DNA from: a virus
Lineage: Duplodnaviria > Caudoviricetes
Reading direction: 5' to 3' (one strand)
Virus record (IMG/VR): IMGVR_UViG_3300047201_000122
Coordinates: 1 to 52,781 of that record
DNA length: 52,781 nucleotides
Shown here: positions 2,063 to 46,302 of the stretch, piece after piece
Layout of the letters: each line of letters opens with the position of its first letter
Position numbering within the stretch: position 1 is the stretch's first letter
Made by a program: the position numbers and the translations under genes
The notes under the pieces: generated by a model
Databases searched by the model: none
Told to the model about the DNA's origin: nothing
Seen by the model: only the letters and a program-made list of their open reading frames with translations

Positions 2063-2530
2063 ATGGAAGAAAAATATTTTAGTGAAGCAATTGAAGAGAT
2101 TTTAAATGCTATTCAAACTAAGTTAGAAAATGCTACTCAAGACGGAGAATTATTACAGGATGTAAAGGTAATAATAAGAGGAGACAGAACATCAGTTAAA
2201 CCAGTTACTCCTGCTATCTGGATATTTTCTGGAATAGCAGTTCCCTCGCCTGCGACATTACATACTATTGTGGAAAGGTGGGAATTAGATGTACAAATAA
2301 TAAGCGTAGCCTATAATATCAAGACAGAAGAAGGTTATAAAAATGCGAATGATGTTGCAGCCAGGGCAAAAAGGATATTATTAAAGGATAGGACTTTAGG
2401 ATTCGGACACGGGACTTTTTTCGCAGACATAAGAAGCAAATCATTTGACTGTTCAAATCCTGCCTTTGCAAATGGAAATTTTTATTCAGCAATATATACT
2501 GCAACCGCAGTTTTCTGTATTCGGGAGTGA
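2063..2530 (+). CDS. Putative tail terminator protein
   Basis: 155 aa between the gp10-like gene and the tail tube; ILLKDRTLG motif. Confidence 0.6.
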   Translation: MEEKYFSEAIEEILNAIQTKLENATQDGELLQDVKVIIRGDRTSVKPVTPAIWIFSGIAVPSPATLHTIVERWELDVQIISVAYNIKTEEGYKNANDVAARAKRILLKDRTLGFGHGTFFADIRSKSFDCSNPAFANGNFYSAIYTATAVFCIRE

Positions 2531-2534
2531 ATTT

Positions 2535-3092
2535 ATGAACAGATTAGATAGAAATCAGTATATGGGAAAGTGGCGAAAGAAGAATAAAGAAGAATGGTCA
2601 AAGTATAATAGTAAATGGAAACAAGAGAATAAAGATAAAGTTAAAAAACATAATAAGAAATATTATCAAGAAAATAGTAATAAAGTATTAGAATTAAATA
2701 AACAATGGCGGAAAGAAAATAAAGAATATTTTTTAAAATATATGGAAGGATATTATATAAATAATAAAGATGGGAGGAAAGAATGTATAAAAAAATATAA
2801 TAAAACAGAAAATGGGAAAGCAACTAAACAAAGGGCTACTTATAAAAGACGAATTAAAATAAAAAATATTATTAATACCTTAAACTCTCAAGAATGGTTA
2901 GATATATTAGAAGCATATAATTATAAATGTGCCTATTGCGATGTAGAATTCGATTGTGAAAATTTACCTACCAAAGACCATATTATACCTATAAGTAAGG
3001 GCGGAGATAATATGAAAGAAAATATAGTCCCTGCTTGTAGAAGTTGTAATTCAAAGAAAAATAATAAAATATTATCAAAAGAAAGGAGATGA
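2535..3092 (+). CDS. HNH homing endonuclease, family A (K/W/Y-rich N-terminal repeats + Zn-HNH)
   Basis: CAYC...TKDHIIPISKGGDNMKENIVPACRSCNSKK; ATG 2535 follows GGGAGTGA. Confidence 0.9.
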   Translation: MNRLDRNQYMGKWRKKNKEEWSKYNSKWKQENKDKVKKHNKKYYQENSNKVLELNKQWRKENKEYFLKYMEGYYINNKDGRKECIKKYNKTENGKATKQRATYKRRIKIKNIINTLNSQEWLDILEAYNYKCAYCDVEFDCENLPTKDHIIPISKGGDNMKENIVPACRSCNSKKNNKILSKERR

Positions 3093-4200: not shown

Positions 4201-4761
4201 ATGTTTGATAGAAAAACATATAATAAACAATGGTTAAAAGATAACCCAGAATATAAAAAAAATTATTATCAAAAAAATAAAGGAAAAATATCAATACAAT
4301 TTAAAAAACAGTATAAGGATAATCCAGAATATCATAAAAAAAATAATAAAAAATGGAGAAAAAATAATTCAGAATATATAAAAGAATATAATAATAAATA
4401 TAATATAAATAATCCTGAATATAAAAAAGAATATTATCGAAAAAACATAAAGAATATTTTAGAAGGTTGTAGAAAATATTATAAAACAGAAAAAGGAAAA
4501 GCATCTGACCAAAGAAAGCGTTTTAAAAGAAGAGCAAGAGAAAAAGAAATAATTAATACTTTGACAGCAAAAGAATGGTTAGATATTCTCAGACAGCATA
4601 ATTTTAAATGTATTTATTGTGGAAAAGATTTATTTGACTTATTTAATAAACCTACCAGAGACCATATAATTCCTATAAGTAAGGGAGGGAATAATACAAA
4701 GGAAAATATCGTTCCCGCTTGTAGAAGTTGCAATAATAGAAAATATAATAAAATACTATAA
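4201..4761 (+). CDS. HNH homing endonuclease, family A
   Basis: NPEY repeats; CIYC...TRDHIIPISKGGNNTKENIVPACRSCN. Confidence 0.9.
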   Translation: MFDRKTYNKQWLKDNPEYKKNYYQKNKGKISIQFKKQYKDNPEYHKKNNKKWRKNNSEYIKEYNNKYNINNPEYKKEYYRKNIKNILEGCRKYYKTEKGKASDQRKRFKRRAREKEIINTLTAKEWLDILRQHNFKCIYCGKDLFDLFNKPTRDHIIPISKGGNNTKENIVPACRSCNNRKYNKIL

Positions 4762-21031: not shown

Positions 21032-21763
21032 ATGTTTGATAAGAAAAAATATATGAAGAAATATCGAAAAGATAAAAAAGGACATATTAAGAAATATAAT
21101 AAAAAATATCATAAAGAATATAGTAAAAAGAATAGAGATAAATTAACACAAGATTGTAAACAATGGCGTAAAGATAATCCCGAAAAAGTAAAGAAAATAA
21201 ATCAAAAATGTTATAGAAATCATATCGAAGAACGAAGGGAATATGGTAGACAATATTCTCAAAATAATATTGATTATTATAGAGAAGGTATTAAACAATG
21301 GAGGAAAAATAATCCTGAAAGGATAAAAAAATTGAGAGAAAATTGGTTTAAAAGTCATCCTAATTTTATGAAACAATATTGTAAAATAAAACGAAGAATA
21401 GATTTAAAATATAATCTTAATAATAAAATGCGTTTAGCAATATGGCAATCTCTAAAAGGCAATAAAAATAATAGGCATTGGGAAGGTTTAGTTAATTATA
21501 AATTAATTGAGTTGATTAAACATCTTAAATCTACAATTCCAGAATATTATACTTGGCAGGATTTTTTAAATAATAAATTACATATAGACCATATTATACC
21601 TATATCTGTTTTTAATTTTGATAAACCAGAGAATCCTGATTTTAAGAAATGCTGGGCATTAAATAATTTAAGATTATTACCAGCAAAAGAAAATCATATA
21701 AAATATAATAAATTGATTAGACCTTTCCAACCAGCATTAAAATTATTAAATATATCGAGGTGA
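21032..21763 (+). CDS. HNH-type endonuclease, family B
   Basis: DLKYNL...SLKGNKNNRHWEGLV...LHIDHIIPISVFNF...CWALNNLRLLPAKEN. Confidence 0.85.
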   Translation: MFDKKKYMKKYRKDKKGHIKKYNKKYHKEYSKKNRDKLTQDCKQWRKDNPEKVKKINQKCYRNHIEERREYGRQYSQNNIDYYREGIKQWRKNNPERIKKLRENWFKSHPNFMKQYCKIKRRIDLKYNLNNKMRLAIWQSLKGNKNNRHWEGLVNYKLIELIKHLKSTIPEYYTWQDFLNNKLHIDHIIPISVFNFDKPENPDFKKCWALNNLRLLPAKENHIKYNKLIRPFQPALKLLNISR

Positions 21764-22769: not shown

Positions 22770-23492
22770 ATGAGTTATGAAAATAAAATAAAAGAGAAAT
22801 TATACCAACAGGAATATCATAAAAATAATCCTAAAAAACTTAAAAGATATATCGAAAAATTTTATAAAATACATCCCAAGAAGAATGCTGAATATCAACG
22901 AAAATTTCAGTTATTAAATAAAGGATATGGAAAAAAATATCAAGAAAAATTCCATAGAGAACATCCCGAGAAAAATGCCGAATATCAGCGAAAATTTTAC
23001 AAACAAAATAAAAATAAAATAAAAATATATATGGAAAAGTATCGTAAGGATAATAAAGAAATTTTAAATAGATATTCTAATCAATATCGAAAAAACAATA
23101 AAGAAAAACAAAATAAACGTGCAAGAAATAGAAGAAGAATAGATTTAAAATATAATCTTGATAATAGAATAAGAGTAGCAATATGGCAATCTTTAAAAGG
23201 GAATAAAAATGGTAGACATTGGGAAGGTTTAGTTGGTTATTCCTTAAATGATTTAATGAAGCATTTAATAAAGACAATCCCTGAGGGATATATTTGGCAA
23301 GATTATTTCGAAGGTAAATTACATATTGACCATATAATACCTATTTCCGCTTTTAACTTCACTAAACCAGAACATATAGATTTTAAAAGATGTTGGGCTT
23401 TAAATAATTTAAGGTTGTTTCCAGCAAAAGAAAATCATATAAAATATAATAAATTAAATAAACCATTCCAACCTTCATTAAAAATCAGTTAA
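22770..23492 (+). CDS. HNH-type endonuclease, family B (no structured leader)
   Basis: Same C-terminal domain as 21032; HPxKNAEYQRKF internal repeats. Confidence 0.85.
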   Translation: MSYENKIKEKLYQQEYHKNNPKKLKRYIEKFYKIHPKKNAEYQRKFQLLNKGYGKKYQEKFHREHPEKNAEYQRKFYKQNKNKIKIYMEKYRKDNKEILNRYSNQYRKNNKEKQNKRARNRRRIDLKYNLDNRIRVAIWQSLKGNKNGRHWEGLVGYSLNDLMKHLIKTIPEGYIWQDYFEGKLHIDHIIPISAFNFTKPEHIDFKRCWALNNLRLFPAKENHIKYNKLNKPFQPSLKIS

Positions 23493-25475: not shown

Positions 25476-26192
25476 ATGGAATTAAAACAATATTATATTA
25501 AATTAAAAAGAAAAATAAATGAGGCTGAAAAATATTATAAAGAATACCCTGATAAATTAACTCCAATATATAAAGAAAAACTTATAAAGGCAAAGGAAAG
25601 ATATAATAAGGAATATCTTAAACTTAATGGGGATAAAAAAAGAAAAGCGGCAAAAATATATCGAAATGAACATAAAAAAGATATAAAAGAGAAAAATAAA
25701 AAATATTGGAAAGAACATCTTAAAGAAAGACATGAAAATAGTAAAAGATATTATAATAAAAATTATGAAAAAATACATAAATGGCAAATGGAGTATGCGA
25801 AAAATAGACACAAAACAGATTTAAAATATAATCTTAGGATGAAAATAAGTAAAGCAATAAATCAATCTCTAAGATATTGTAAAAAAGTTAAAAGTAATAA
25901 AAATGGTAGACATTGGGAAGACCTTGTAGGTTATAAACTAAACGATTTAATTATTAGATTATTATCTACTATGCCAGAAGGTTATACTTGGGAAGACGTT
26001 AAAAGGGGAGAATTGCATATAGACCATATCATACCTATAAGTGTATTTAATTTTACTAAACCAGAGCATATAGATTTTAAGAGATGTTGGGAATTGGAAA
26101 ATTTGCGGTTATTATCCAAAAAAGATAATTTGATAAAAAATGCTAAATTAACAAAACCATTCCAACCATCATTATTATTAGAAGAATTATAA
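25476..26192 (+). CDS. HNH-type endonuclease, family B
   Basis: RHWEDLVGY...LHIDHIIPISVFNFTKPEHIDFKRCWELENLRLL. Confidence 0.85.
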   Translation: MELKQYYIKLKRKINEAEKYYKEYPDKLTPIYKEKLIKAKERYNKEYLKLNGDKKRKAAKIYRNEHKKDIKEKNKKYWKEHLKERHENSKRYYNKNYEKIHKWQMEYAKNRHKTDLKYNLRMKISKAINQSLRYCKKVKSNKNGRHWEDLVGYKLNDLIIRLLSTMPEGYTWEDVKRGELHIDHIIPISVFNFTKPEHIDFKRCWELENLRLLSKKDNLIKNAKLTKPFQPSLLLEEL

Positions 26193-27141: not shown

Positions 27142-27705
27142 ATGTCAAAATTAATAGATATAACAGGGCAAAAGTTTGGGAGATTAACGGTAATTAGAAG
27201 AGAACCTAACGATAAGTGGGAAAATACAAGATGGTTGTGTAAATGTTCTTGTGGCAAAAGCAAAATTATTTTGGTAACAAGTTTAACAAGTGGAGCTACT
27301 AAAAGTTGTGGTTGTTTACAAAAAGAAATTATAGGGAATATCAGAAGATTAAAATCGGGACTTTCCACCATAAGAGCGATAATAAATAATTATAAAGGTG
27401 GAGCAAGAAGTAGAGGATATAATTTTAATTTAACAGAAAAACAATTTATTGAATTAACACAAAAAGATTGTTTCTATTGTGGAACAAAACCAAATACTAT
27501 AGCTAAATGGGGACATTGTTATGGAGAATATATTTATAATGGATTAGATAGAATAGAAAACAATAAAGGATATACGATAGATAATGTCGTTCCTTGTTGT
27601 TTTGTTTGTAATCGAGCAAAAGATACAATGACATTACAAGAATTTCAAAATTGGATTAAGAAAGTTTATAGTAAAACGTTTACTAAAAAAGGAGAAATAA
27701 AATGA
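27142..27705 (+). CDS. HNH-type homing endonuclease, family C
   Basis: DITGQKFGRLTV...CKCSCG...SCGCL; GLDRIENNKGYTIDNVVPCCFVCN; paralog of 15616. Confidence 0.85.
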   Translation: MSKLIDITGQKFGRLTVIRREPNDKWENTRWLCKCSCGKSKIILVTSLTSGATKSCGCLQKEIIGNIRRLKSGLSTIRAIINNYKGGARSRGYNFNLTEKQFIELTQKDCFYCGTKPNTIAKWGHCYGEYIYNGLDRIENNKGYTIDNVVPCCFVCNRAKDTMTLQEFQNWIKKVYSKTFTKKGEIK

Positions 27706-27920: not shown

Positions 27921-28049
27921 ATGCCAAAGGCGATTTGTAAAAAATGCGGAAAGATATTTTGGGGTTGGGCTTTGAAATACAAAGATAGTTATTGTGATTG
28001 TTGCGGAGAGAAATTAGAAATAACTGAAATCCCTGACCCGAGAGATTAA
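27921..28049 (+). CDS. 42-aa Zn-ribbon protein, not in ORF track
   Basis: AAGGAG SD; MPKAICKKCGKIFWGWALKYKDSYCDCCGEKLEITEIPDPRD*. Confidence 0.7.
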   Translation: MPKAICKKCGKIFWGWALKYKDSYCDCCGEKLEITEIPDPRD

Positions 28050-28188
28050 AAATGTTAAGGAGCAGATGTAAATTAACTTTTATTAGAAATTAATTGCTTT
28101 TTAATCTCTATCAAAATATCGGGATTGGGGACGTTAGAATATATCTGTGATTAATTTAATCATTGGAGATTTAGTGCTTCCCAATCCT
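28041..28188 (+). other. Two consecutive long inverted repeats (structured intergenic element)
   Basis: AGAGATTAAAAA/TTTTTAATCTCT (28041-28109); GGATTGGG/CCCAATCC with inner TGATTA/TAATCA (28122-28187). Confidence 0.55.
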
Positions 28189-28201
28189 CATAAAAAATAT
28201 G

Positions 28202-28230
28202 TTGACTTTTATTTATAATTAGTATATAAT
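28202..28230 (+). promoter_or_regulatory. Sigma70 promoter for the radical SAM + mini-tmRNA unit
   Basis: TTGACT-17-TATAAT. Confidence 0.8.
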
Positions 28231-28262
28231 TTATATAATAAGCAAAAAGGGGTAAAAAAGAG

Positions 28263-29072
28263 ATGGGTATAATCTATAAACCTCAAGGCAAAGCGAAGGA
28301 ATACAGTCCTTACGCATTGAATATCTATATTGGATGTGACTACGCTTGCAGATATTGCTATATCAAAAATCTCTATGTTAATAACGAAAAGGTAAAACTT
28401 AGAGAAAATCTTATTTCGGGACTAGAGAATCAACTAAAAAAGCAGGAAATAAATAAACAAGTATTATTAAGTTTTCTCGGAGACCCCTATTGTATTGCAG
28501 ATATAGAATACAAAAAAACAAGAGAAACTCTGGAAATACTTAATCAATATGATGTTCCTGTCGCTATCCTATCTAAAGGCGGGAATCGGATACTAAGGGA
28601 TTTGGATTTATTCAAAAAATTTAAGAAGATAAAAGTAGGAGCTACTTTAACCCTCTTAGATAAAAAACAAAATGAATATTACGAGCCTAAAGCTGCATCA
28701 ACTGGAGAAAGAATATGCGTATTAAGAAAATTACATCAAGAAGGTATTCGGACTTGGGTTAGTTTTGAACCAGTTATAGATCCAGAGCAAACCTTAAAAA
28801 TATTGGAATTAACTAAAGATTTTGTAGATGAGTTTAAAGTGGGGAAAATGAATTATTTCCAATTACCGCAAAGTATAAATTGGGGAATATTTGGCGAGAG
28901 TATATCTAAGAGATTATTAGAAATACAAAAAGATTTTTATATTAAAAAAGATTTATATAAGTATATGGATTATAAGTTACAGCCAAAATATATAGACCAA
29001 GATTACCTGGCATTAAAAGACGATACGGAAACGATTAAAGAAAAAGATATAGAGCAACAAATATTATTTTAA
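28263..29072 (+). CDS. Radical SAM protein (SPL/photolyase-like type)
   Basis: LNIYIGCDYACRYCY (CxxxCxxC); GDPY; TWVSFEPVID. Confidence 0.85.
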   Translation: MGIIYKPQGKAKEYSPYALNIYIGCDYACRYCYIKNLYVNNEKVKLRENLISGLENQLKKQEINKQVLLSFLGDPYCIADIEYKKTRETLEILNQYDVPVAILSKGGNRILRDLDLFKKFKKIKVGATLTLLDKKQNEYYEPKAASTGERICVLRKLHQEGIRTWVSFEPVIDPEQTLKILELTKDFVDEFKVGKMNYFQLPQSINWGIFGESISKRLLEIQKDFYIKKDLYKYMDYKLQPKYIDQDYLALKDDTETIKEKDIEQQILF

Positions 29073-29075
29073 TAT

Positions 29076-29204
29076 GGGGGCGACAGGTTTCGATAGTTAT
29101 CTTCCAACGGGCGGGTCCCTCCTAAAGATAAATAGATTTATAACCTTGGAGTCTTTAGATAGGAAAGATGCTATACTCGGGTTCGATTCCCGACGCCTCC
29201 ACCA
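29076..29204 (+). ncRNA. ssrA: Miniature tmRNA-like RNA (tRNA-like domain with ~56-nt insert, 129 nt total)
   Basis: 5' GGGGGCG-ACAGGTTTCGA; 3' TAC-TCGGG-TTCGATT-CCCGA-CGCCTCC-A-CCA; G3.U70 pair; no D-stem; helix-2 TAGTTATCTTCC/GGAAAGATGCTA. Confidence 0.85.
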
Positions 29205-29318
29205 ATATTTGAAGTAGCTATATTATAATATACCAGAAAAATTAACTACGCGAAAAAGAGTGTTTTCTTAGGTATTCAAGGCATACCAAAAATAAAAAAA
29301 AGAAAGGAGAGGATATAT

Positions 29319-29489
29319 ATGCTACATCCAGCAATAATAAGACAAAGAGCAAGAAATAAAACAATATGGATAGCCAGAGAATATCATAAACCCTTACAAT
29401 TGAAGGCGAGGGAGTTGGGATGTTCGATGACTTTTTTACTAAATCAGATACTTAAAAAATATTTTGAAAAAGGAGTAAAAAATGAATAA
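29319..29489 (+). CDS. Ribbon-helix-helix-type regulator (56 aa), not in ORF track
   Basis: AAGGAGAGG SD; KTIWIAREYHKPLQLKARELGCSMTFLLNQILKKYF. Confidence 0.6.
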   Translation: MLHPAIIRQRARNKTIWIAREYHKPLQLKARELGCSMTFLLNQILKKYFEKGVKNE

Positions 29490-30402
29490 GAAAGAAATCG
29501 ATAATGTAAAAGTTAGATTTGATACATTATTGAGTGAATTGTTACAAAATATGAACGAGAAAGAGGACCTGCTGTCAAATAGAGTAATGGAAATTAATAT
29601 GGGAGTTAGTGGGACTATTAGCACGGCCAGTTTTGAGAATTGGAAACCGGGGTTTGGTATGAAGGTGAATACCGAAGGATTAACTAAAGAGCAAATAAGA
29701 GAAGCATATTTACAAGGCAAGGCAGAATTAAAAGGGCAGTTTAATCTGGAGAAGAATAATTGCAGGGCAGAAGCAGTATCGGAGAAATTTAAGAATATTG
29801 GATTTACTATAGTAAATAATATCGCCTATGTTTGGATTACCAGCGTTTGCAATTATGATAAAATATTTATGATTCCAGAATTTGAACTTAATCAATATTC
29901 CAGCAGGGGCAAAATTATCCACGAATTGATATATGAATTTATTAAGACAAAGAAGTGGATAGAAAATATCACTATTTTTTGTGAGGAGAAAGGGTTGATT
30001 GAGGATTTAGCCATAGTTCAGAAAGGAAATTTGAAATTAAGTATAGAGGATTGCAGTTATAAAAAAGTTATGGAAAATTGTATTGACAAAATAGAAGAAC
30101 CAGAATTTGAAGTTGAAGTAATAAATGATGAACATCTTTATAAGGGGAGAGCCGATTTCTTCTGCAAATGGGAAAAAATTCCCACAGTAGTAGATATAAA
30201 GGTAGGTTCAGCAAGGGATATGATGCAATTAGGAGCTGAGGCAGTATGCAAATTTGGAACAAAAAAGATGATTATAATTCCCGCTGGAGAATCTGATACC
30301 AAACAAGGATATTCAAAACCAATTGAGAATGAAAATGTTACAGAAGAATTTAAAAGATTTATTAAAAAGAGAGATAAATTTTTTAAAAAGTTTGGATTTT
30401 AA
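29482..30402 (+). CDS. PD-(D/E)XK exonuclease (recombination, Cas4/YqaJ-like)
   Basis: SRGKIIH...FEVEV...YKGRADF...VVDIKVG...QL. Confidence 0.7.
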   Translation: MNKKEIDNVKVRFDTLLSELLQNMNEKEDLLSNRVMEINMGVSGTISTASFENWKPGFGMKVNTEGLTKEQIREAYLQGKAELKGQFNLEKNNCRAEAVSEKFKNIGFTIVNNIAYVWITSVCNYDKIFMIPEFELNQYSSRGKIIHELIYEFIKTKKWIENITIFCEEKGLIEDLAIVQKGNLKLSIEDCSYKKVMENCIDKIEEPEFEVEVINDEHLYKGRADFFCKWEKIPTVVDIKVGSARDMMQLGAEAVCKFGTKKMIIIPAGESDTKQGYSKPIENENVTEEFKRFIKKRDKFFKKFGF

Positions 30403-30417
30403 TCGGAAGGAAATAAG

Positions 30418-31017
30418 ATGAGAATAAAAGGAACATATCATCATTCTGAAAAAACGAAAGAAAAAATAAGTAAATCACATATTGGAAAACATTTATCAGA
30501 AGAATCAAAAAGAAAAATAAGTATATCTAATCTTGGAAAATCTCCTAATCGTTTAGGAATATCTCATACAGAAGAGACAAGAAAAAAAATGAGCAAATCT
30601 CATCTTGGGAATAAATCTACCTTAGGCAAACATCTTTCAGAAGAACATAAAAATAAAATAAGTAAATCTCTTAAAAAGGAAAAACATCCTAATTGGCAAG
30701 GAGGTATTTCATATCAAAAAGGATATGGTAATTTTAAAACTAGAAGAAGAAATATTAAGAAATATAATAATGGAGGTTTCCATACCATTGGAGATTGGGA
30801 GAATTTAAAAGCACAATATAATTGGATTTGTCCTTGTTGTGGGAAAAGAGAACCTGAAATAAAATTATCAGAAGACCACATAATACCAATAACGAAAGGG
30901 GGTAGTGATAATATAGAAAATATACAACCACTTTGTAAGTCTTGTAATTCAAGAAAATTTACAAAGATAATTAGATATAATGAAGGGAGATATATAAAAT
31001 GTATAGAAGTCAATTAA
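30418..31017 (+). CDS. NUMOD3-repeat HNH homing endonuclease
   Basis: [12 protein letters not shown]-type repeats; CPCC...[25 protein letters not shown]. Confidence 0.9.
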
Positions 31018-32559: not shown

Positions 32560-33174
32560 ATGCTTAGTAGAAAAGAGATAGATAGAAGATATTATCTTGG
32601 ACATAAAGAAAAAGTAAAAGAAAAAAATAGAAAGTTTAGAGAAGAGAATCCTTTATATTCCAAAAAATGGTGGGAAAATAATCGTAGAAAACAAAAGAAA
32701 TATCAAATGGAATGGAAAAAGAAGAATATAAAGAAGGCAAAAGAAATTTGGGATAAATATTATATGGAGAATATCACAAATATAAGAATAAGAGATAAAA
32801 AATTCAAAAAGGAAAAATATAAAACTGATTTAAGATATCATATTAATGATTTAATGAGTAGAGCAATAAGACATTCTTTAAAGGGGAATAAGAATAATCG
32901 TAGTTGGAGTATTCTCGTAGATTATAAATTGAATGATTTGATAAGACATCTCAAAAAGACTTTACCTGATGGTTATATTTGGCAAGACTATATAGAAGGC
33001 AAACTACATATAGACCATATAATCCCAGTTACTGCTTTTAACTTTACTAAACCAGAACATATAGATTTTAAAAGATGTTGGGCTTTGGGAAATTTAAGAT
33101 TATTGCCAGCAAGGGAAAATATAAAAAAGAATAATAAATTATCTAAACCGTTTCAACCTGCATTAAAAATATAA
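32560..33174 (+). CDS. HNH-type endonuclease, family B
   Basis: LHIDHIIPVTAFNFTKPEHIDFKRCWALGNLRLLPAREN. Confidence 0.85.
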   Translation: MLSRKEIDRRYYLGHKEKVKEKNRKFREENPLYSKKWWENNRRKQKKYQMEWKKKNIKKAKEIWDKYYMENITNIRIRDKKFKKEKYKTDLRYHINDLMSRAIRHSLKGNKNNRSWSILVDYKLNDLIRHLKKTLPDGYIWQDYIEGKLHIDHIIPVTAFNFTKPEHIDFKRCWALGNLRLLPARENIKKNNKLSKPFQPALKI

Positions 33175-40323: not shown

Positions 40324-40767
40324 ATGTTTGATAAAAAAAAATATATGGAAAAGTGGCGAAAAGATAATAAAAAACATAAAATAAAATATGATAAACAATG
40401 GAAAAAAAATAATCCAGAATATATGAAAAAATGGCTTAAAGAAAATCCTGAATCTAATAGACCAGCTATAAAAAGATATTTCAAAACAGAAAAAGGTAAA
40501 GCTTGTAATCAAAGAGGACATTTTAAAAGACAAGCAAGATTTAGAGAAATTATTAACACCTTGACAGCAGAAGAATGGTTGAATATTTTAAAAGAGAATA
40601 ATTTTAGATGTATTTATTGTGGTAAGGATTTATTAAATTTATTTGATAAACCTGTGAGAGACCATATTATTCCTATAAGTAAAGGTGGGAATAATACAAA
40701 GGAGAATGTAACCTCCGCTTGCAGGAGTTGTAATGCAAAAAAATATAATAAAATTATAGTAAAATAA
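40324..40767 (+). CDS. HNH homing endonuclease, family A
   Basis: INTLTAEEW...CIYC...RDHIIPISKGGNNTKENVTSACRSCN. Confidence 0.9.
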   Translation: MFDKKKYMEKWRKDNKKHKIKYDKQWKKNNPEYMKKWLKENPESNRPAIKRYFKTEKGKACNQRGHFKRQARFREIINTLTAEEWLNILKENNFRCIYCGKDLLNLFDKPVRDHIIPISKGGNNTKENVTSACRSCNAKKYNKIIVK

Positions 40768-41975: not shown

Positions 41976-42503
41976 ATGGCAGGAGATAATAAAGTAGATA
42001 GTAAAACAAAGCAGGAAAGAGTATATAAGGTTAGTTTAATGTTAAGAAGGAAATCTATCTTTTTTATATTAGATTATATTAGATTAAATTGGGGATTGGA
42101 AAGAGCTCAAGCCTTTAATTATATTAAAGAAGCAAAAAATGAATGGCAAAAATATTTTTCACAAATAAAAAAATGTGGGAAAAGTTATTATGTAGCTCAA
42201 TTGAGAGATTTAAAAGACGAAGCCTATGAAAGAAAAATAGTAATAGGTAAAGGTGATAATAAAGAGGCAGTTACCGTTGCTGATTTAGGATTAGTCTTTG
42301 AAATAACCAAAGAAGAAGCTAAATTAATGGGTATATACCCTTCTACTAAAGAAGATATAACTGTAAAGCATTCAGGCGAAATTAATAGTCAATTAACTCA
42401 TATATTAAAAATGGAAGATGAGGAACTTAATGAACTTATTAAAAGACTTTCAAAAACGGGAATTGGCGACAGCCCTACTGGAACAGAAGAGAAGAGAAAT
42501 TAA
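41976..42503 (+). CDS. terS: Terminase small subunit
   Basis: Immediately upstream of and overlapping the large subunit; EEAKLMGIY...VKHSGEI...MEDEELNE. Confidence 0.75.
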   Translation: MAGDNKVDSKTKQERVYKVSLMLRRKSIFFILDYIRLNWGLERAQAFNYIKEAKNEWQKYFSQIKKCGKSYYVAQLRDLKDEAYERKIVIGKGDNKEAVTVADLGLVFEITKEEAKLMGIYPSTKEDITVKHSGEINSQLTHILKMEDEELNELIKRLSKTGIGDSPTGTEEKRN

Positions 42504-43851
42504 GAAAGACCCCTGGCTATTAGCTGAGATATTGTATCCTAAATATGAATTCAAAGATTTTCATAGGGAATGGTTTTATAATGCTTTAAGTGAAGAAGAG
42601 GATTTATGTTTAGCACCGAGAAAATTTGCTAAAACTACAGTGAGGGCTATAATAAATTCAATATGGGATATGATAAGAAATCCCAATATACAGATTGGCC
42701 TCTGTTCGGATACTAATTCCCAAGCAATACATTTTGGAAGAGAAACTAAAATGCATTGTGAAAGAAATAAAGATTTAATTACTTTATATCCTTATTTAAC
42801 ATCAGGCAGGATATGGGCGGATAATGAATTTACTATAATCGGGGCAACGGAAATTCAGAAGGGAGCAACGATTACTGCTTTTGGTTATGGACAGGCCACA
42901 GGATATGAATTTGATAAACTAATAATTGATGATATAGTTGATTTTGAGAATGTCAGAACAAAATATCAAAGGGATAAATTAGAAGATTGGGTAGGAATGG
43001 GATTGAGGCCGATGCTGAAATCAGGAGGTAAGATAAGTTGGAGCGGTACTCGTTATAATCAGAATGACCAGTATGGCAGGTTGTTAGAAAAAGGGATAAA
43101 GACAAATACAAATTCTCATAAAGCTATACTTGACAATGGAGAATCTATGTGGCCAGAATTATGGCCAATAGAAAAATTATTAGATAAAAAAGAAAAAATG
43201 GGTTCGATGAGTTTTGATGCTCAATACCAAAATGATGTTAAGTTGATGGCTTTAGGAAAGATATTCAAGCGGGAATGGTTTAAATATATCCGAAAGAATC
43301 CTAATGACCCTTCTGAATTTATTAGAGATGACGGAGCGAGAATAAATATAAAAGAACTGGCTATATACCAGACCTGTGATTTAGCGATAAGTAAAGAAAC
43401 GACCGCAGACTATTTTGTGATATTGACTTTTGGAATGGATAAAGAGGGAAATATATATATATTGGATATCCTAAGAGGTAGATATGATTGGCCAGAACAG
43501 AAGAAAATTAGCAGACAGAATTATTTGAAATGGAAAGAATTAGGTTTAAGATGGAGAGGGATTGAAAAAGTTCAATATCAGGCGGTATTATTACAGGAAT
43601 TAAATACCTTTGTAGATATGTCCATAATACCTCTTATTACTATGGGATTAGATAAAATAACCAGAGCAATGCCGATGAGTGCAAAGTATGAAAGTGGGAA
43701 AGTTTATCATAATGCTAATATGGAAATATTGCAGGATTTTGAAGATGAAATGACTTCTTTTAATGAAGGAGAAAATGACGATATGGTAGATTGCACAAGT
43801 TATATACCCCAATGCGTAACCAGAGAGAAATTAAAGGTAAGGGTGAGGTGA
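42418..43851 (+). CDS. terL: Terminase large subunit
   Basis: APRKFAKT Walker A; LIIDD Walker B; GTRY; CDLA...ADY; NDDMVD nuclease motif. Confidence 0.95.
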   Translation: MRNLMNLLKDFQKRELATALLEQKRREIKKDPWLLAEILYPKYEFKDFHREWFYNALSEEEDLCLAPRKFAKTTVRAIINSIWDMIRNPNIQIGLCSDTNSQAIHFGRETKMHCERNKDLITLYPYLTSGRIWADNEFTIIGATEIQKGATITAFGYGQATGYEFDKLIIDDIVDFENVRTKYQRDKLEDWVGMGLRPMLKSGGKISWSGTRYNQNDQYGRLLEKGIKTNTNSHKAILDNGESMWPELWPIEKLLDKKEKMGSMSFDAQYQNDVKLMALGKIFKREWFKYIRKNPNDPSEFIRDDGARINIKELAIYQTCDLAISKETTADYFVILTFGMDKEGNIYILDILRGRYDWPEQKKISRQNYLKWKELGLRWRGIEKVQYQAVLLQELNTFVDMSIIPLITMGLDKITRAMPMSAKYESGKVYHNANMEILQDFEDEMTSFNEGENDDMVDCTSYIPQCVTREKLKVRVR

Positions 43852-44091: not shown

Positions 44092-44721
44092 ATGATTAAT
44101 AAAAAGGAATACAATAAACAATGGCGGGATAAAAATAAAGAACACATTAAGAAATATAATAAAAAATGGTGGGAAGAAAATCCAGACTATAGAAATGAAT
44201 ATTATGAAAGAAATAAAAAGAAGGTAAAAGAACAAAATAAAAATTGGAGGAAAGGACATCCAGAATATGATATAATATATCTGGGAAAATATAGAGAAGA
44301 GAATAAAGAAAGATTATCAATTCAGCATAAAAAATGGAGAGAAAATAATCCAGAACACCATAAGAAATGGCAAGAAAATAATCTTGATAAACTTCAAGAA
44401 ATTATAAAAAAATACAATAAAACAGAAAAGGGGAAAGCAAACGCTCAAAGAGTCCAATCTAAAAGACGTGCAAATGAGAGAGAGATTATTAATACTTTAA
44501 CCTATCAAGAATGGTTGGACATTTTAAAAGGATATAAATATGAATGTGCTTACTGCAATAAGAAATTTGATTTATTCAATAAACCAGAAAGAGACCACGT
44601 TATCCCTATTTCAAAAGGCGGAAACAATATTAAAGAAAATATCGTTCCTGCTTGCAAAAGTTGTAATAGCAGTAAACAAAGTAAAGATTTAATTATTTTT
44701 AATAAAAACAAAGGAAGGTGA
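44092..44721 (+). CDS. HNH homing endonuclease, family A
   Basis: WxEENP repeats; CAYC...RDHVIPISKGGNNIKENIVPACKSCN. Confidence 0.9.
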   Translation: MINKKEYNKQWRDKNKEHIKKYNKKWWEENPDYRNEYYERNKKKVKEQNKNWRKGHPEYDIIYLGKYREENKERLSIQHKKWRENNPEHHKKWQENNLDKLQEIIKKYNKTEKGKANAQRVQSKRRANEREIINTLTYQEWLDILKGYKYECAYCNKKFDLFNKPERDHVIPISKGGNNIKENIVPACKSCNSSKQSKDLIIFNKNKGR

Positions 44722-44727
44722 TGATAG

Positions 44728-46302
44728 ATGAGTAATCGGCCTTTTTGTATAGTCACAAAGGCAGGTAATACTGTCAGGGCAGAAATACTCGATAAATATA
44801 CTCTATCCGGCGAAAGTAAACAATTGGAATCTGATGTATTTGCAGATAGATATGAAAAATATGAATTACAAACTCCACTATACAATCCAATCATAATGGC
44901 CAAACTTATGGAATATTCGACATATCATATGCGTTGTTGCAAAGTAAAGGCAGGTGATTGCGTAGGACAAGGGTGGAGTTTATACCCTTTAGTAGAAAAT
45001 CCAAATGATGCACAAAAGAAAACGATAGAAGAATTCTTTAAGAAGCTACCTGAACCAATAGAAAATACCATTGAAAAAGCACAATTAGATAAAGAACTAA
45101 TTGGTTATTTATCGATAGAAATAGTCAGGGAATATAATAAATTTGATGGTATTATTAGTCTAATAAAACATATTCCAGCTCATACCGTAAGGATTCATAA
45201 GAGCGGGAATAAATTCTGTCAATTATGGCAGGGTGGATTAGGAACTGAAGAAAGAGTATGGTTTAGAAAATTAGGATACGGAAAGGATATTGAAAAAGTA
45301 AATGGATTAGAAAAGGAATCAGGGGAATATACTAAAGAAGAGAGAGCAAATGAATTATTCTGGGATGTAAATTATACCCCCAGAAGTTATTTTTATGGAA
45401 TTCCTGATATAACACCTGCAATAGGAGCTATTACTGGAGATATATCCAGAAGGGATTATAACATAGACTTCTTTACTAATTATGGAGTCCCCGCTTATAT
45501 GGTATATATCACTGGAGATTTTGACCCTGGAGAAGAGAACCCTGAAACTAAAAAGACTCCAATGGAAGAAGAAATAAATGAGAAATTTAAAGAAATCGCT
45601 AAAAATCCTCATTCAGTTATGATTTTAAGTGTTCCAAAAAGAGAAGGTGGTATGGGTGAAGTAACCATTGAAGTAAAACCATTATCAATTGAAGTAAAAG
45701 AAGCAAGTTTTAGAATGTATCGAATAGATAATAGAAACGAAATAATATCTGCTCACGGTATACCCCCATACCGTATAGGGGTATATGAAACAGGAGAATT
45801 GGCAGGTAATTTAGGGCAAGAATCCACTATTATATATAATGAGAGCATAATAAAACCAAGACAAAGGGTATATAAGAATTTAATTAATTTTTACGTCTTG
45901 CCTTCCTTAGGAATAACCGATTGGGAATGGGAACTAAATTCTATTGATATAACTGATGTGGATAAAGAATTAGACCGGGTAGGGGTATTAATTGATAAGG
46001 CAATGGCCACTCCAAACGAAGGGATTGCTTTTATTGGAGATTATTTTGGGATAGAAGTTAAAAGCGATAATCCGGCTATGGATTTACATTATTATATGGG
46101 ACAACCGATAGATTTAGGCGGATATGTTCCTGCTTCTGATATTACCAATGTATTACAAGGTATGAAAGAAAAATTAATTGAGGTGTTTATAGCTAATGTT
46201 ACAAAATCAAGCGGGAGTGATGCTATTCGAGATAGAAAACTTATTAAAGCGATTGCAGACCTTCAAAAAGATTCCAGCAGAAGTAATCAGAGAAGAAAAT
46301 AG
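44728..46302 (+). CDS. Portal protein (PBSX-type)
   Basis: HIPAHTVR; FYGIPD; FFTNYGVP; IISAHGIPPYRIG; TPNE. Confidence 0.9.
   Translation: MSNRPFCIVTKAGNTVRAEILDKYTLSGESKQLESDVFADRYEKYELQTPLYNPIIMAKLMEYSTYHMRCCKVKAGDCVGQGWSLYPLVENPNDAQKKTIEEFFKKLPEPIENTIEKAQLDKELIGYLSIEIVREYNKFDGIISLIKHIPAHTVRIHKSGNKFCQLWQGGLGTEERVWFRKLGYGKDIEKVNGLEKESGEYTKEERANELFWDVNYTPRSYFYGIPDITPAIGAITGDISRRDYNIDFFTNYGVPAYMVYITGDFDPGEENPETKKTPMEEEINEKFKEIAKNPHSVMILSVPKREGGMGEVTIEVKPLSIEVKEASFRMYRIDNRNEIISAHGIPPYRIGVYETGELAGNLGQESTIIYNESIIKPRQRVYKNLINFYVLPSLGITDWEWELNSIDITDVDKELDRVGVLIDKAMATPNEGIAFIGDYFGIEVKSDNPAMDLHYYMGQPIDLGGYVPASDITNVLQGMKEKLIEVFIANVTKSSGSDAIRDRKLIKAIADLQKDSSRSNQRRK

What the first reader, a model, noticed from the sequence alone, without database searches (positions are those of the whole stretch)
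29076..29204. Phage-encoded miniature tmRNA: intact alanyl tRNA-like domain, no real tag-coding domain
Seen: acceptor stem GGGGGCG/CGCCTCC with a G3.U70 pair, discriminator A and encoded CCA; T-arm TCGGG-TTCGATT-CCCGA; a stemless D-loop ACAGGTTTCGA; and a helix-2 equivalent (29094-29105/29162-29173). Established: this is the tmRNA tRNA-like domain, the part charged by AlaRS and bound by SmpB; canonical tmRNAs are about 350 nt with pseudoknots and a tag ORF. Here only ~56 nt lie inside (a GGG/CCC mini-hairpin and a CTAAAGAT/GTCTTTAG hairpin whose loop AAATAGATTTATAACC contains stop codons). It starts 3 nt after a radical SAM stop codon, downstream of a strong promoter. Inference: it is either an SmpB/EF-Tu decoy that blocks host trans-translation, or a rescue RNA adding only Ala plus 0-1 residues (e.g. 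UAGAU-UUA-UAA) so phage proteins escape degradation tagging.
Basis: partly seen in the sequence, partly recalled or inferred. Interest (0 to 1): 0.9.

Follow-up and report, generated by a model that had tools for sequence, protein, structure and literature searches.

The report
Phage mini-tmRNA without a tag template
A freshwater-sediment phage carries a 129-base stump of the bacterial ribosome-rescue RNA (tmRNA) that keeps the alanine-accepting end but has no tag message; it is one of a large group of such phage RNAs that standard tools do not find.

Summary
Window 29076-29204 (+) matches Rfam tmRNA end to end (53.6 bits, cut-off 47). About 280 model positions (pseudoknots and tag frame) are replaced by 55-56 nt. 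ARAGORN finds nothing.

It is not an assembly collapse. An independent contig covers it with 0 differences, and a second study holds the identical element.

The kind is not new. Mycobacteriophage DS6A's 'TLD only' tmRNA and the SmpB-titration idea are in print.

What is new is the scale:
- ARAGORN called 0 of 29 tested.
- The 2025 tmRNA database lists only nine 'standard, no CDS' sequences.

Across the class G3:U70 and A73 are kept while neighbouring pairs covary. So alanine charging, not only SmpB binding, appears to be selected.

Best reading (inferred): a charged, SmpB-dependent competitor of host tmRNA that separates ribosome rescue from degradation tagging. The proposed UUA-UAA mini-tag and the inner hairpins are no better than chance.

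Verdict: new member of a known kind, moderate interest.

The parts
29076..29204 (+). Whole mini-tmRNA gene (129 nt)
   Evidence: Rfam RF00023 at 53.6 bits, E 2.3e-18, model 1-374. A model built only from 75-83-nt phage minis scores 42.1 bits, E 1.3e-8, at 29075-29201.
29076..29082 (+). Acceptor stem, 5' strand (G3 at 29078)
   Evidence: Pairs with 29194-29200, 7 of 7 pairs including G3:U70.
29083..29093 (+). Stemless D-loop with the GGTTTCGA motif
   Evidence: Read. The D-loop residues G12, G13, T14, T16, C17, G18 and A19 (numbered in the first sequence) are invariant in the 88-sequence class alignment.
29094..29105 (+). Helix 2, 5' strand
   Evidence: Pairs with 29162-29173: 11 pairs with two bulges. 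The equivalent helix in the class covaries.
29106..29161 (+). 56-nt insert in place of pseudoknots and tag frame. Possible hairpins at 29109-29111/29117-29119 and 29122-29129/29151-29158.
   Evidence: Replaces 280 Rfam model positions. Fold no better than shuffles, z +0.51. No sequence likeness to the inserts of same-domain relatives.
29162..29173 (+). Helix 2, 3' strand
29177..29193 (+). T-arm (stem 29177-29181/29189-29193, loop TTCGATT)
   Evidence: posterior probability '*' over this part.
29194..29204 (+). Acceptor 3' strand (T70 at 29198), discriminator A 29201, encoded CCA 29202-29204
   Evidence: A73 is present in 95 of 95 class members, and CCA is encoded in 17 of 95.
28202..28230 (+). 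Sigma-70-like promoter candidate for a radical-SAM + mini-tmRNA transcript (inferred)
   Evidence: TTGACT-17-TATAAT, 11 of 12 matches. No terminator-like site lies between it and the element.
28263..29072 (+). Upstream neighbour: radical SAM protein. It is context only, and the linkage is not conserved.
   Evidence: Pfam PF04055, E 4.9e-9. Nearest NCBIfam models are the PA0069/Rv2578c type, all below cut-off. Its 8 relatives at 60-65% identity have no tmRNA-like element within up to 4 kb.

Best explanation
The element is a functional phage gene for a tag-less mini-tmRNA. It has a complete alanine-type tRNA-like domain and helix 2, closed by 56 nt of lineage-specific filler instead of the pseudoknots and tag message.

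Proposed working (all steps inferred):
1. It is transcribed behind the radical SAM gene.
2. It is cut out by host tRNA-processing enzymes (RNase P at G29076; the 3' end is trimmed to the encoded CCA).
3. It is charged with alanine by host AlaRS and bound by host SmpB, since the phage has no SmpB of its own.
4. It is delivered by EF-Tu to ribosomes stalled on broken mRNAs, in competition with host tmRNA.
5. Having no template, it can donate at most its alanine. Stalled chains therefore escape the degradation tag, and normal trans-translation is diverted or blocked. The ribosome must then be freed by another host route.

What is shown: the anatomy, its integrity in independent data, and class-wide conservation of the charging signals. 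What is inferred: expression, processing, charging, SmpB binding and the outcome on the ribosome.
For: - Anatomy and Rfam match.
- It is not an artefact. A 9,650-nt contig made by another assembler from the run that may be the source covers 28600-29700 with 0 differences. A 209-nt contig from another study spans 29066-29274 with 3 differences, all outside the element. Two contigs of a third study show listed differences only in the flanks. No joints were seen.
- It belongs to a selected class. In sequences found by a pattern that did not fix the acceptor stem, G3:U70 occurs in 93 of 95 unique sequences and A73 in 95 of 95. Pairs 4-7 take four to six pair types. In the 33 sequences from new loci, none of which fits the earlier biased pattern, the figures are 31 of 33 and 33 of 33; the 2 exceptions look like a mis-registered sequence and a tandem-tRNA artefact.
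- Helix 2 of the class: 7 pairs, mean 90% canonical, 5-6 pair types per position, against 34-40% in shifted registers.
- Class members often lie in tRNA gene arrays: a same-strand tRNA lies within 200 nt in 8 of 29. This fits tRNA-type processing and a role in translation.
- No SmpB is encoded by this phage or by 5 same-domain phages, so the host protein must be used.
- Precedent, from passages of PMC4131195 and PMC11915505 that cite Mao 2009: a DS6A-like TLD-only RNA strongly inhibits E. coli tmRNA.
Against: - There is no expression, charging or binding data for this RNA. No RNA run holds it.
- According to the passage in PMC4131195, inhibition in E. coli did not need chargeability. Titration of SmpB alone could therefore suffice.
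- This subfamily departs from the class at the junction before the T-stem. The class has GGAC, with the second G in at least 90% of sequences and the A invariant. The window has ATAC and its relatives ACAC. SmpB binding may differ.
- The nearest phage relatives found lack any tmRNA: 1 complete genome and 8 radical-SAM loci. The gene is therefore accessory.
- What frees a ribosome that holds peptidyl-mini-tmRNA is unknown. The phage encodes no Pth or RF-1-domain protein.
Confidence: 0.55

Rival explanations
1. Pure SmpB sponge. The RNA only titrates host SmpB (and perhaps RNase R) off the ribosome and shuts down trans-translation. Charging and ribosome entry play no part.
For: Passages in PMC4131195 say a DS6A-like molecule inhibits tmRNA 'whether or not chargeable', perhaps by titrating SmpB. 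PMC11662646 reports that phage-induced tmRNA/tRNA fragments bind RNase R.
Against: G3:U70 and A73 are kept in 93 and 95 of 95 diverged class members while neighbouring acceptor pairs change freely. A sponge has no need for the AlaRS identity pair.
Confidence: 0.2
2. Minimal templated rescue. The loop at 29130-29150 acts as a one-codon message (UUA at 29138-29140, then UAA at 29141-29143). Stalled chains receive Ala-Leu and are released by a release factor.
For: T-A-G at -5 to -3 before UUA resembles the T-A-R that I read by eye before the resume codon in 7 of 7 full-length tmRNAs. Two-residue tags exist in Fermentibacterota (PMC11915505).
Against: - The motif occurs in 14% of shuffles of the insert.
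- The codon is UUA, whereas all 7 full-length examples resume at GCN (by eye).
- The 75-83-nt class has no room for any codon.
- Same-domain relatives have unrelated inserts.
- In the 106-nt relatives a comparable frame loses its stop through a compensatory change that keeps a hairpin (L005 against L011).
- ARAGORN finds no tag.
Confidence: 0.07
3. Decaying remnant. A full-length phage tmRNA lost its middle and the stump is on its way out, with no function.
For: - The insert has no fold signal.
- The gene is absent from the nearest relatives.
- The junction motif is degenerate.
Against: - The tRNA-like domain is intact in every defining position.
- Near-identical relatives from other studies differ only in the flanks.
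- All 5 whole records examined with the same or nearly the same domain (4 same-domain, 1 variant, L146) carry only mini forms of 89-135 nt, and three of those records have terminal repeats.
- The class shows purifying selection.
Confidence: 0.08
4. Attachment-site relic. The sequence is the phage half of an integration site in the host tmRNA gene.
For: tmRNA genes are common integration sites, as noted in passages of PMC11915505 and PMC9004378. Several cultured phages carry only the 3' half of a tmRNA.
Against: Both halves of the acceptor stem and the D-loop are present. No tyrosine integrase or serine recombinase domain is found in the complete genome.
Confidence: 0.02
5. Alanine donor or decoy for a process off the ribosome, such as an anti-defence decoy for a host nuclease or sensor that recognises tmRNA or tRNA.
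For: Charging signals are conserved. Phage use of tRNA/tmRNA fragments against CRISPR accessory nucleases is reported (PMC11662646).
Against: The tmRNA-specific D-loop and junction motifs are conserved across the class. These distinguish tmRNA from tRNA-Ala, which points to the tmRNA partners. No defence-related partner gene was recognised next to the element.
Confidence: 0.08

Closest known systems
Mycobacteriophage DS6A 'TLD only' tmRNA (tmRNA Website Phage__Mycobacterium.9)
   Same: Phage-borne, standard gene order, intact alanine-type tRNA-like domain plus helix 2, and no tag frame. I located it at JN698994 28478-28560 (83 nt, Rfam 43.2 bits, unannotated in the record). It aligns with the 75-83-nt class, and the class model also hits the window.
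   Different: - DS6A is 83 nt; the window element is 129 nt, with 56 extra nt closing helix 2.
- DS6A is a high-GC temperate phage with a tyrosine integrase. The window phage has about 30% GC and no integrase.
- The junction is ATAC here, against GCAC in DS6A and GGAC in most of the class.
Mitochondrial tmRNA of jakobids and about 65-bp plastid tmRNAs of Mallomonadaceae (CDS-less organelle forms)
   Same: The mRNA-like region is lost while the tRNA-like domain is retained. They are thought still to help with incomplete mRNAs together with SmpB (passage of PMC11915505).
   Different: These are organelle genes. The mitochondrial ones are usually permuted and have their own Rfam model. They arose by reductive evolution in an organelle, not in a virus acting on a host that has a full system.
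Full-length phage tmRNAs (for example mycobacteriophages Bxz1, Wildcat, Kumao, PegLeg; Melnitz two-piece form)
   Same: Phage-encoded versions of the same RNA family, often beside tRNA genes.
   Different: They are 330-410 nt and have pseudoknots and a tag frame that ARAGORN detects. The window element lacks all of that.
Two-residue-tag tmRNAs of Fermentibacterota
   Same: An extreme shortening of the tag (Ala-Ala) shows that rescue with almost no tag exists in nature (PMC11915505 passage).
   Different: These are bacterial tmRNAs that still have a recognisable frame. I did not see their sequences.

Membership tests
tmRNA, standard one-piece (Rfam RF00023) | Score at or above the curated gathering threshold | tested here: met
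   53.6 bits against 47, E 2.3e-18.
tmRNA, standard one-piece (Rfam RF00023) | tRNA-like domain: 7-bp acceptor stem with G3:U70, discriminator A, stemless D-loop, T-arm | tested here: met
   Read directly and aligned with high posterior probability.
tmRNA, standard one-piece (Rfam RF00023) | Helix 2 joining the tRNA-like domain to the rest | tested here: met
   29094-29105 / 29162-29173, 11 pairs with two bulges.
tmRNA, standard one-piece (Rfam RF00023) | Pseudoknots PK1-PK4 | tested here: not met
   280 model positions are absent and only 55-56 nt lie inside helix 2.
tmRNA, standard one-piece (Rfam RF00023) | Tag reading frame with resume codon and stop | tested here: not met
   ARAGORN finds no tmRNA or tag. 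The only tag-like motif is at chance level.
tmRNA, standard one-piece (Rfam RF00023) | Alanylation by AlaRS; binding of SmpB and EF-Tu | not testable with these tools
   Only the sequence determinants can be seen.
CDS-less (TLD-only) phage tmRNA, DS6A type | Phage-encoded, with an intact tRNA-like domain and no tag frame | tested here: met
   The window is a complete phage record with terminase, portal and protease genes. The domain is intact and there is no tag.
CDS-less (TLD-only) phage tmRNA, DS6A type | Matches a profile built from the class alone | tested here: met
   Model R1 (87 phage sequences of 75-81 nt plus the 83-nt DS6A form) scores 42.1 bits, E 1.3e-8, over model positions 1-79.
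CDS-less (TLD-only) phage tmRNA, DS6A type | 'Little more than the TLD' (about 75-85 nt) | tested here: not met
   129 nt. It is one of a minority of longer forms of 89-140 nt.
CDS-less (TLD-only) phage tmRNA, DS6A type | Inhibits host trans-translation | not testable with these tools
   Known for a DS6A-like molecule only through passages that cite Mao 2009. That paper is not held.
tRNA-Ala | Cloverleaf with D-stem and anticodon arm | tested here: not met
   ARAGORN finds no tRNA. The Rfam clan competition keeps tmRNA, not tRNA.
Phage attachment site in a tmRNA gene | Only the 3' part of the gene, together with an integrase | tested here: not met
   The 5' half is present. No Phage_integrase or Resolvase domain is found in the genome.

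The most novel reading that the evidence does not exclude
Tag-less mini-tmRNAs are a widespread, positively maintained phage tool rather than a curiosity of one mycobacteriophage. They would be alanine-charged hijackers of host SmpB that switch off degradation tagging, and perhaps RNase R recruitment, during infection, while still engaging stalled ribosomes. The subfamily that includes this window keeps a nearly constant tRNA-like domain and rapidly swaps the 34-80-nt insert. That insert could tune stability or partner choice, or could in some members act as a minimal message.
Probability: 0.3. Interest if true: 0.75.

Novelty: new member of a known kind. Interest (0 to 1): 0.55.

Why it matters
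Trans-translation is the main ribosome-rescue and quality-control route of bacteria. How phages deal with it is poorly known. What a tmRNA without a message does is an open question that also applies to mitochondria and plastids.

This element, and the class around it, gives many natural variants for studying that question:
- More than 100 distinct phage sequences were seen here, against nine 'standard, no CDS' entries in the 2025 database.
- Unannotated copies occur in cultured Streptomyces and Stenotrophomonas phages, so the question can be tested at the bench.
- There is also a practical point for annotation. ARAGORN-based pipelines miss these genes (0 of 29), and one record annotates a protein over one.

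Tried and rejected
- BLAST of 28000-31000 against GenBank phages found no match. The element alone matched only T-arm pieces of 30-34 nt.
- The downstream 306-aa protein has no relative in viral contigs.
- Relatives could not be drawn for a virus record.
- Host inference failed. The 30-nt 3' end occurs in 7 MAG contigs of mixed phyla, all full-length tmRNAs of 346-377 nt. No host call is possible.
- Expression: no RNA holder is listed for this stretch, so nothing can be said.
- Antisense idea: the longest complementarity of helix 2 plus insert to the rest of the phage is 12 nt. Shuffles mostly give 10-13 nt, with a range of 9-15. Rejected.
- Inner hairpins as a structural signal: no energy support.
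- Mini-tag motif: at chance level.
- Cultured-phage T-arm hits (PegLeg, Kumao, Marzo/Ps15, Tunturi_4, RcSimone-Hastad, Rb1, DSS3_MAL1) proved to be full-length, permuted or 3'-only pieces, not minis.
- Linkage to the radical SAM gene: not conserved.
- Mao et al. 2009 is not held. What it showed is taken from passages in two later papers.
- Supplementary tables of the tmRNA database papers, which may list further CDS-less phage forms, could not be seen.
- One literature search failed on term length.
- Literature searches for a described class of phage TLD-only tmRNAs returned only the DS6A case. This holds for the held library only.

Full report
WHAT IS THERE

The window is a complete phage record: 52,781 bp, CheckV 100%, about 30% GC, with genes almost all on the + strand. 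It has a large terminase (42418-43851), a portal (44728-46302), a head protease and a virion protein.

At 29076-29204 (+), Rfam's tmRNA model RF00023 matches from its first to its last position. The score is 53.6 bits (gathering 47), E 2.3e-18. The alignment skips 280 model positions and places 55 nt there. It is the only match above gathering in the window. ARAGORN, which needs a tag frame, reports nothing.

Read directly and folded with the two tRNA-type stems fixed, the element consists of:
- a 7-bp acceptor stem with G3:U70, discriminator A and an encoded CCA;
- an unpaired D-loop with GGTTTCGA;
- helix 2, with 11 pairs and two bulges;
- a 56-nt insert with two possible hairpins;
- a canonical T-arm.

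Three corrections apply. The second hairpin's loop is 21 nt. The inner hairpins have no energetic support (z +0.51 for the insert; z -0.73 for the whole element). The promoter-like site (TTGACT-17-TATAAT, 28202-28230) precedes the radical SAM gene, not the RNA.

IS IT AN ARTEFACT OR A ONE-OFF DELETION?

It is neither.

- Read evidence. A 9,650-nt contig made by a different assembler from the run that may be the source covers 28600-29700 without a difference, at depth 76.
- A 209-nt contig from a second study spans 29066-29274 with three differences, all downstream of the element.
- In a third study, two short contigs covering both ends of the element show listed differences only in the flanks.
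- No joints were reported. These are contigs, not reads, and the numbers are small. The flank-only pattern is therefore only a hint of constraint.

Relatives:
- The one related complete phage found (AAA protein 63% identical, 51 kb) has no tmRNA of any size.
- The eight loci with a 60-65% identical radical SAM gene have none within up to 4 kb.
- The RNA is thus an accessory gene, and its place after the radical SAM gene is not conserved.

A LARGE CLASS AROUND IT

A pattern for a tmRNA-type 5' end and 3' end was scanned over IMG/VR with different gap sizes.
- Gap of 60-90 nt: 15 contigs. By eye, 12 are mini-tmRNAs of 106-126 nt and 3 are tandem-tRNA artefacts.
- Gap of 91-121 nt: 4 more, of 135-140 nt.
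These are almost all RNAs of 77-84 nt made of the tRNA-like domain, a 7-bp helix 2, an A-rich bulge and a small capping hairpin.

Support for the class:
- Of 9 of the longer minis tested, 7 pass Rfam's gathering score.
- The published DS6A element lies at 28478-28560 of JN698994. It is 83 nt, scores 43.2 bits, and is unannotated. It aligns with this class.
- A covariance model built only from 87 phage sequences of 75-81 nt plus the 83-nt DS6A form finds the window element (42.1 bits, E 1.3e-8) and all 14 longer minis given to it. It finds nothing in the tmRNA-less relatives.
- ARAGORN of 29 minis. In 8 of 29 a same-strand tRNA gene lies within 200 nt.
- BLAST with one class member finds full-length, unannotated copies in Streptomyces phages LuckySocke, GiJojo, pSt2308, BRock and Alone3, and in Stenotrophomonas virus Jojan60. 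There are 7 records, with 'none' or 'hypothetical protein' annotated under the match.

THE WINDOW'S SUBFAMILY

Several minis share almost the same tRNA-like domain as the window, including an A-Y-A-C junction where the class has GGAC. Their lengths are:
- 89 nt (L038);
- 106 nt (L005, L011, L012, L013);
- 121-122 nt (three metagenome contigs);
- 129 nt (the window).

Two longer forms, of 135 nt (L146) and 137 nt (L148), carry variant domains.

Their inserts are unrelated in sequence and fold into different hairpins. The phages with the 106-nt form share several distant proteins with the window phage, at 30-68% identity. In five whole records of this group, three with terminal repeats, the mini is the only tmRNA match and there is no SmpB.

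Within the 106-nt group one inner hairpin changes by a compensatory A-U to G-C switch. That switch also destroys the stop codon of the only short frame (L005 against L011). Structure, not coding, is being kept.

WHAT THE CONSERVATION SAYS ABOUT MECHANISM

I scanned with a pattern that fixes only the D-loop and T-arm. I then asked what the acceptor stem looks like.
- Of 110 unique sequences, 95 have at least 6 of 7 acceptor pairs. The other 15 are listed and were left out; they are mostly other RNAs or mis-registered.
- Among the 95, G3:U70 occurs in 93 and A73 in 95. G1-C72 and G2-C71 occur in 94 each.
- Pairs 4-7 each take four to six pair types.
- Restricting to the 33 sequences from newly found loci, none of which fits the earlier G-biased pattern, gives 31 of 33 and 33 of 33. 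The two exceptions look like a mis-registered sequence and a tandem-tRNA artefact.

A G:U wobble kept while its neighbours covary is the signature of selection for AlaRS recognition (established knowledge of tRNA-Ala and tmRNA identity). Helix 2 of the class covaries strongly: mean 90% canonical over 7 pairs, with 5-6 pair types each, against 34-40% in six shifted registers. The tmRNA-specific D-loop and junction motifs are invariant or nearly so.

Together these results argue that the RNAs are charged and meet the tmRNA partners (SmpB, EF-Tu, the ribosome), not merely that they soak up SmpB. The class has no room for a message. The window's candidate message (UAGAU-UUA-UAA) appears in 14% of shuffles and uses UUA. 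All seven full-length tmRNAs that I could read resume at GCN after T-A-R (by eye).

I therefore favour a charged competitor that delivers at most one alanine and no degron. This uncouples rescue from tagging or blocks it. Nothing here shows expression, charging, binding or the fate of the ribosome, so that reading remains inference. The phage encodes no SmpB, Pth, RF-1-domain protein or integrase.

COMPARISON WITH WHAT IS KNOWN

- Hudson, Lau and Williams 2014 (PMC4131195, passages) list 'Mycobacterium phage DS6A (TLD only)'. [quoted passage not shown] 2009. That paper is not held.
- The 2025 database paper (PMC11915505, passages) repeats this. It describes CDS-less mitochondrial and about 65-bp plastid forms and two-residue tags. 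It counts 79 phage sequences and nine 'standard, no CDS' sequences among 97,179.
- Surveys of phage tmRNAs rely on ARAGORN (PMC9004378, PMC7162821), which misses these forms.
- Six literature searches found no description of a broad class of phage TLD-only tmRNAs in the held library. Supplementary tables could not be read.

VERDICT

This is a real, intact, phage-encoded, tag-less mini-tmRNA. It is a new and unusually long member of a kind first seen in DS6A. The decoy idea has precedent but is probably incomplete. The mini-tag idea is unsupported. The most useful outcome is the evidence that such RNAs are common, conserved for charging and overlooked.

Noticed in passing
window 2445-3092, 4201-4761, 21032-21763, 22770-23492, 25476-26192, 27142-27705, 30418-31017, 32560-33174, 40324-40767, 44092-44721: The phage carries about ten HNH/endonuclease-VII-type paralogs spread through the genome. 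Several flank the mini-tmRNA region. One relative (L158) has such a gene directly upstream of its mini-tmRNA.
   Followed up: partly
window 29175-29204 (run X1, record 2): In the run that may be the source, a second contig (17,790 nt, depth 92) carries the identical 30-nt 3' end of the element with different flanks. Run X3 shows depth 51-56 over the same bins. This is another tmRNA or mini-tmRNA, possibly the host's, that shares this end.
   Followed up: no
GenBank phages OR725497 17977-18054, PP725410 17025-17102, PV588686 33356-33433, KX925554 97143-97211, OR725492 18169-18231, ON045087 37725-37804: Cultured Streptomyces phages and Stenotrophomonas virus Jojan60 hold 63-80-nt matches to a class mini-tmRNA. 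None is annotated as an RNA. In two records a 'hypothetical protein' lies over the match.
   Followed up: partly
L224 (phage Marzo) 338-712; L226 (phage Ps15) 338-711: A 375-nt 'tmRNA' annotation overlaps tRNA-Leu and tRNA-Thr. ARAGORN reads it as a permuted two-piece tmRNA, while another record calls part of it 'tRNA-Undet pseudo'.
   Followed up: partly
L228 (Tunturiibacter phage Tunturi_4) 280-327: A tmRNA 3' piece (T-arm plus acceptor 3' strand) lies just downstream of a gene annotated 'RF-1 domain peptide chain release factor'. This is a possible rescue-factor pairing in a phage.
   Followed up: no
L025-L144 and L161-L222, inner 12-18 nt of the roughly 80-nt minis: The cap of helix 2 is usually an A-rich bulge followed by a near-palindromic CCGCAYGCGG-type hairpin. 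The full-length tmRNAs have a GCATG word at about the same distance into helix 2. This suggests the minis arose by deletion between the two strands of helix 2 (by eye).
   Followed up: no
L163, L177, L200, L205, L221: A recurrent stretch of about 90 nt, with GGTTTCGAG and a T-arm but no tmRNA-type acceptor stem, appears in five viral contigs. It may be a different tRNA-like element (rows marked BAD).
   Followed up: no
window 28263-29072: The radical SAM protein is nearest to the PA0069 / Rv2578c / 'mobile pair B' families and to a PHROG annotated as DNA repair photolyase. All matches are far below the curated cut-offs, so its function is open.
   Followed up: partly
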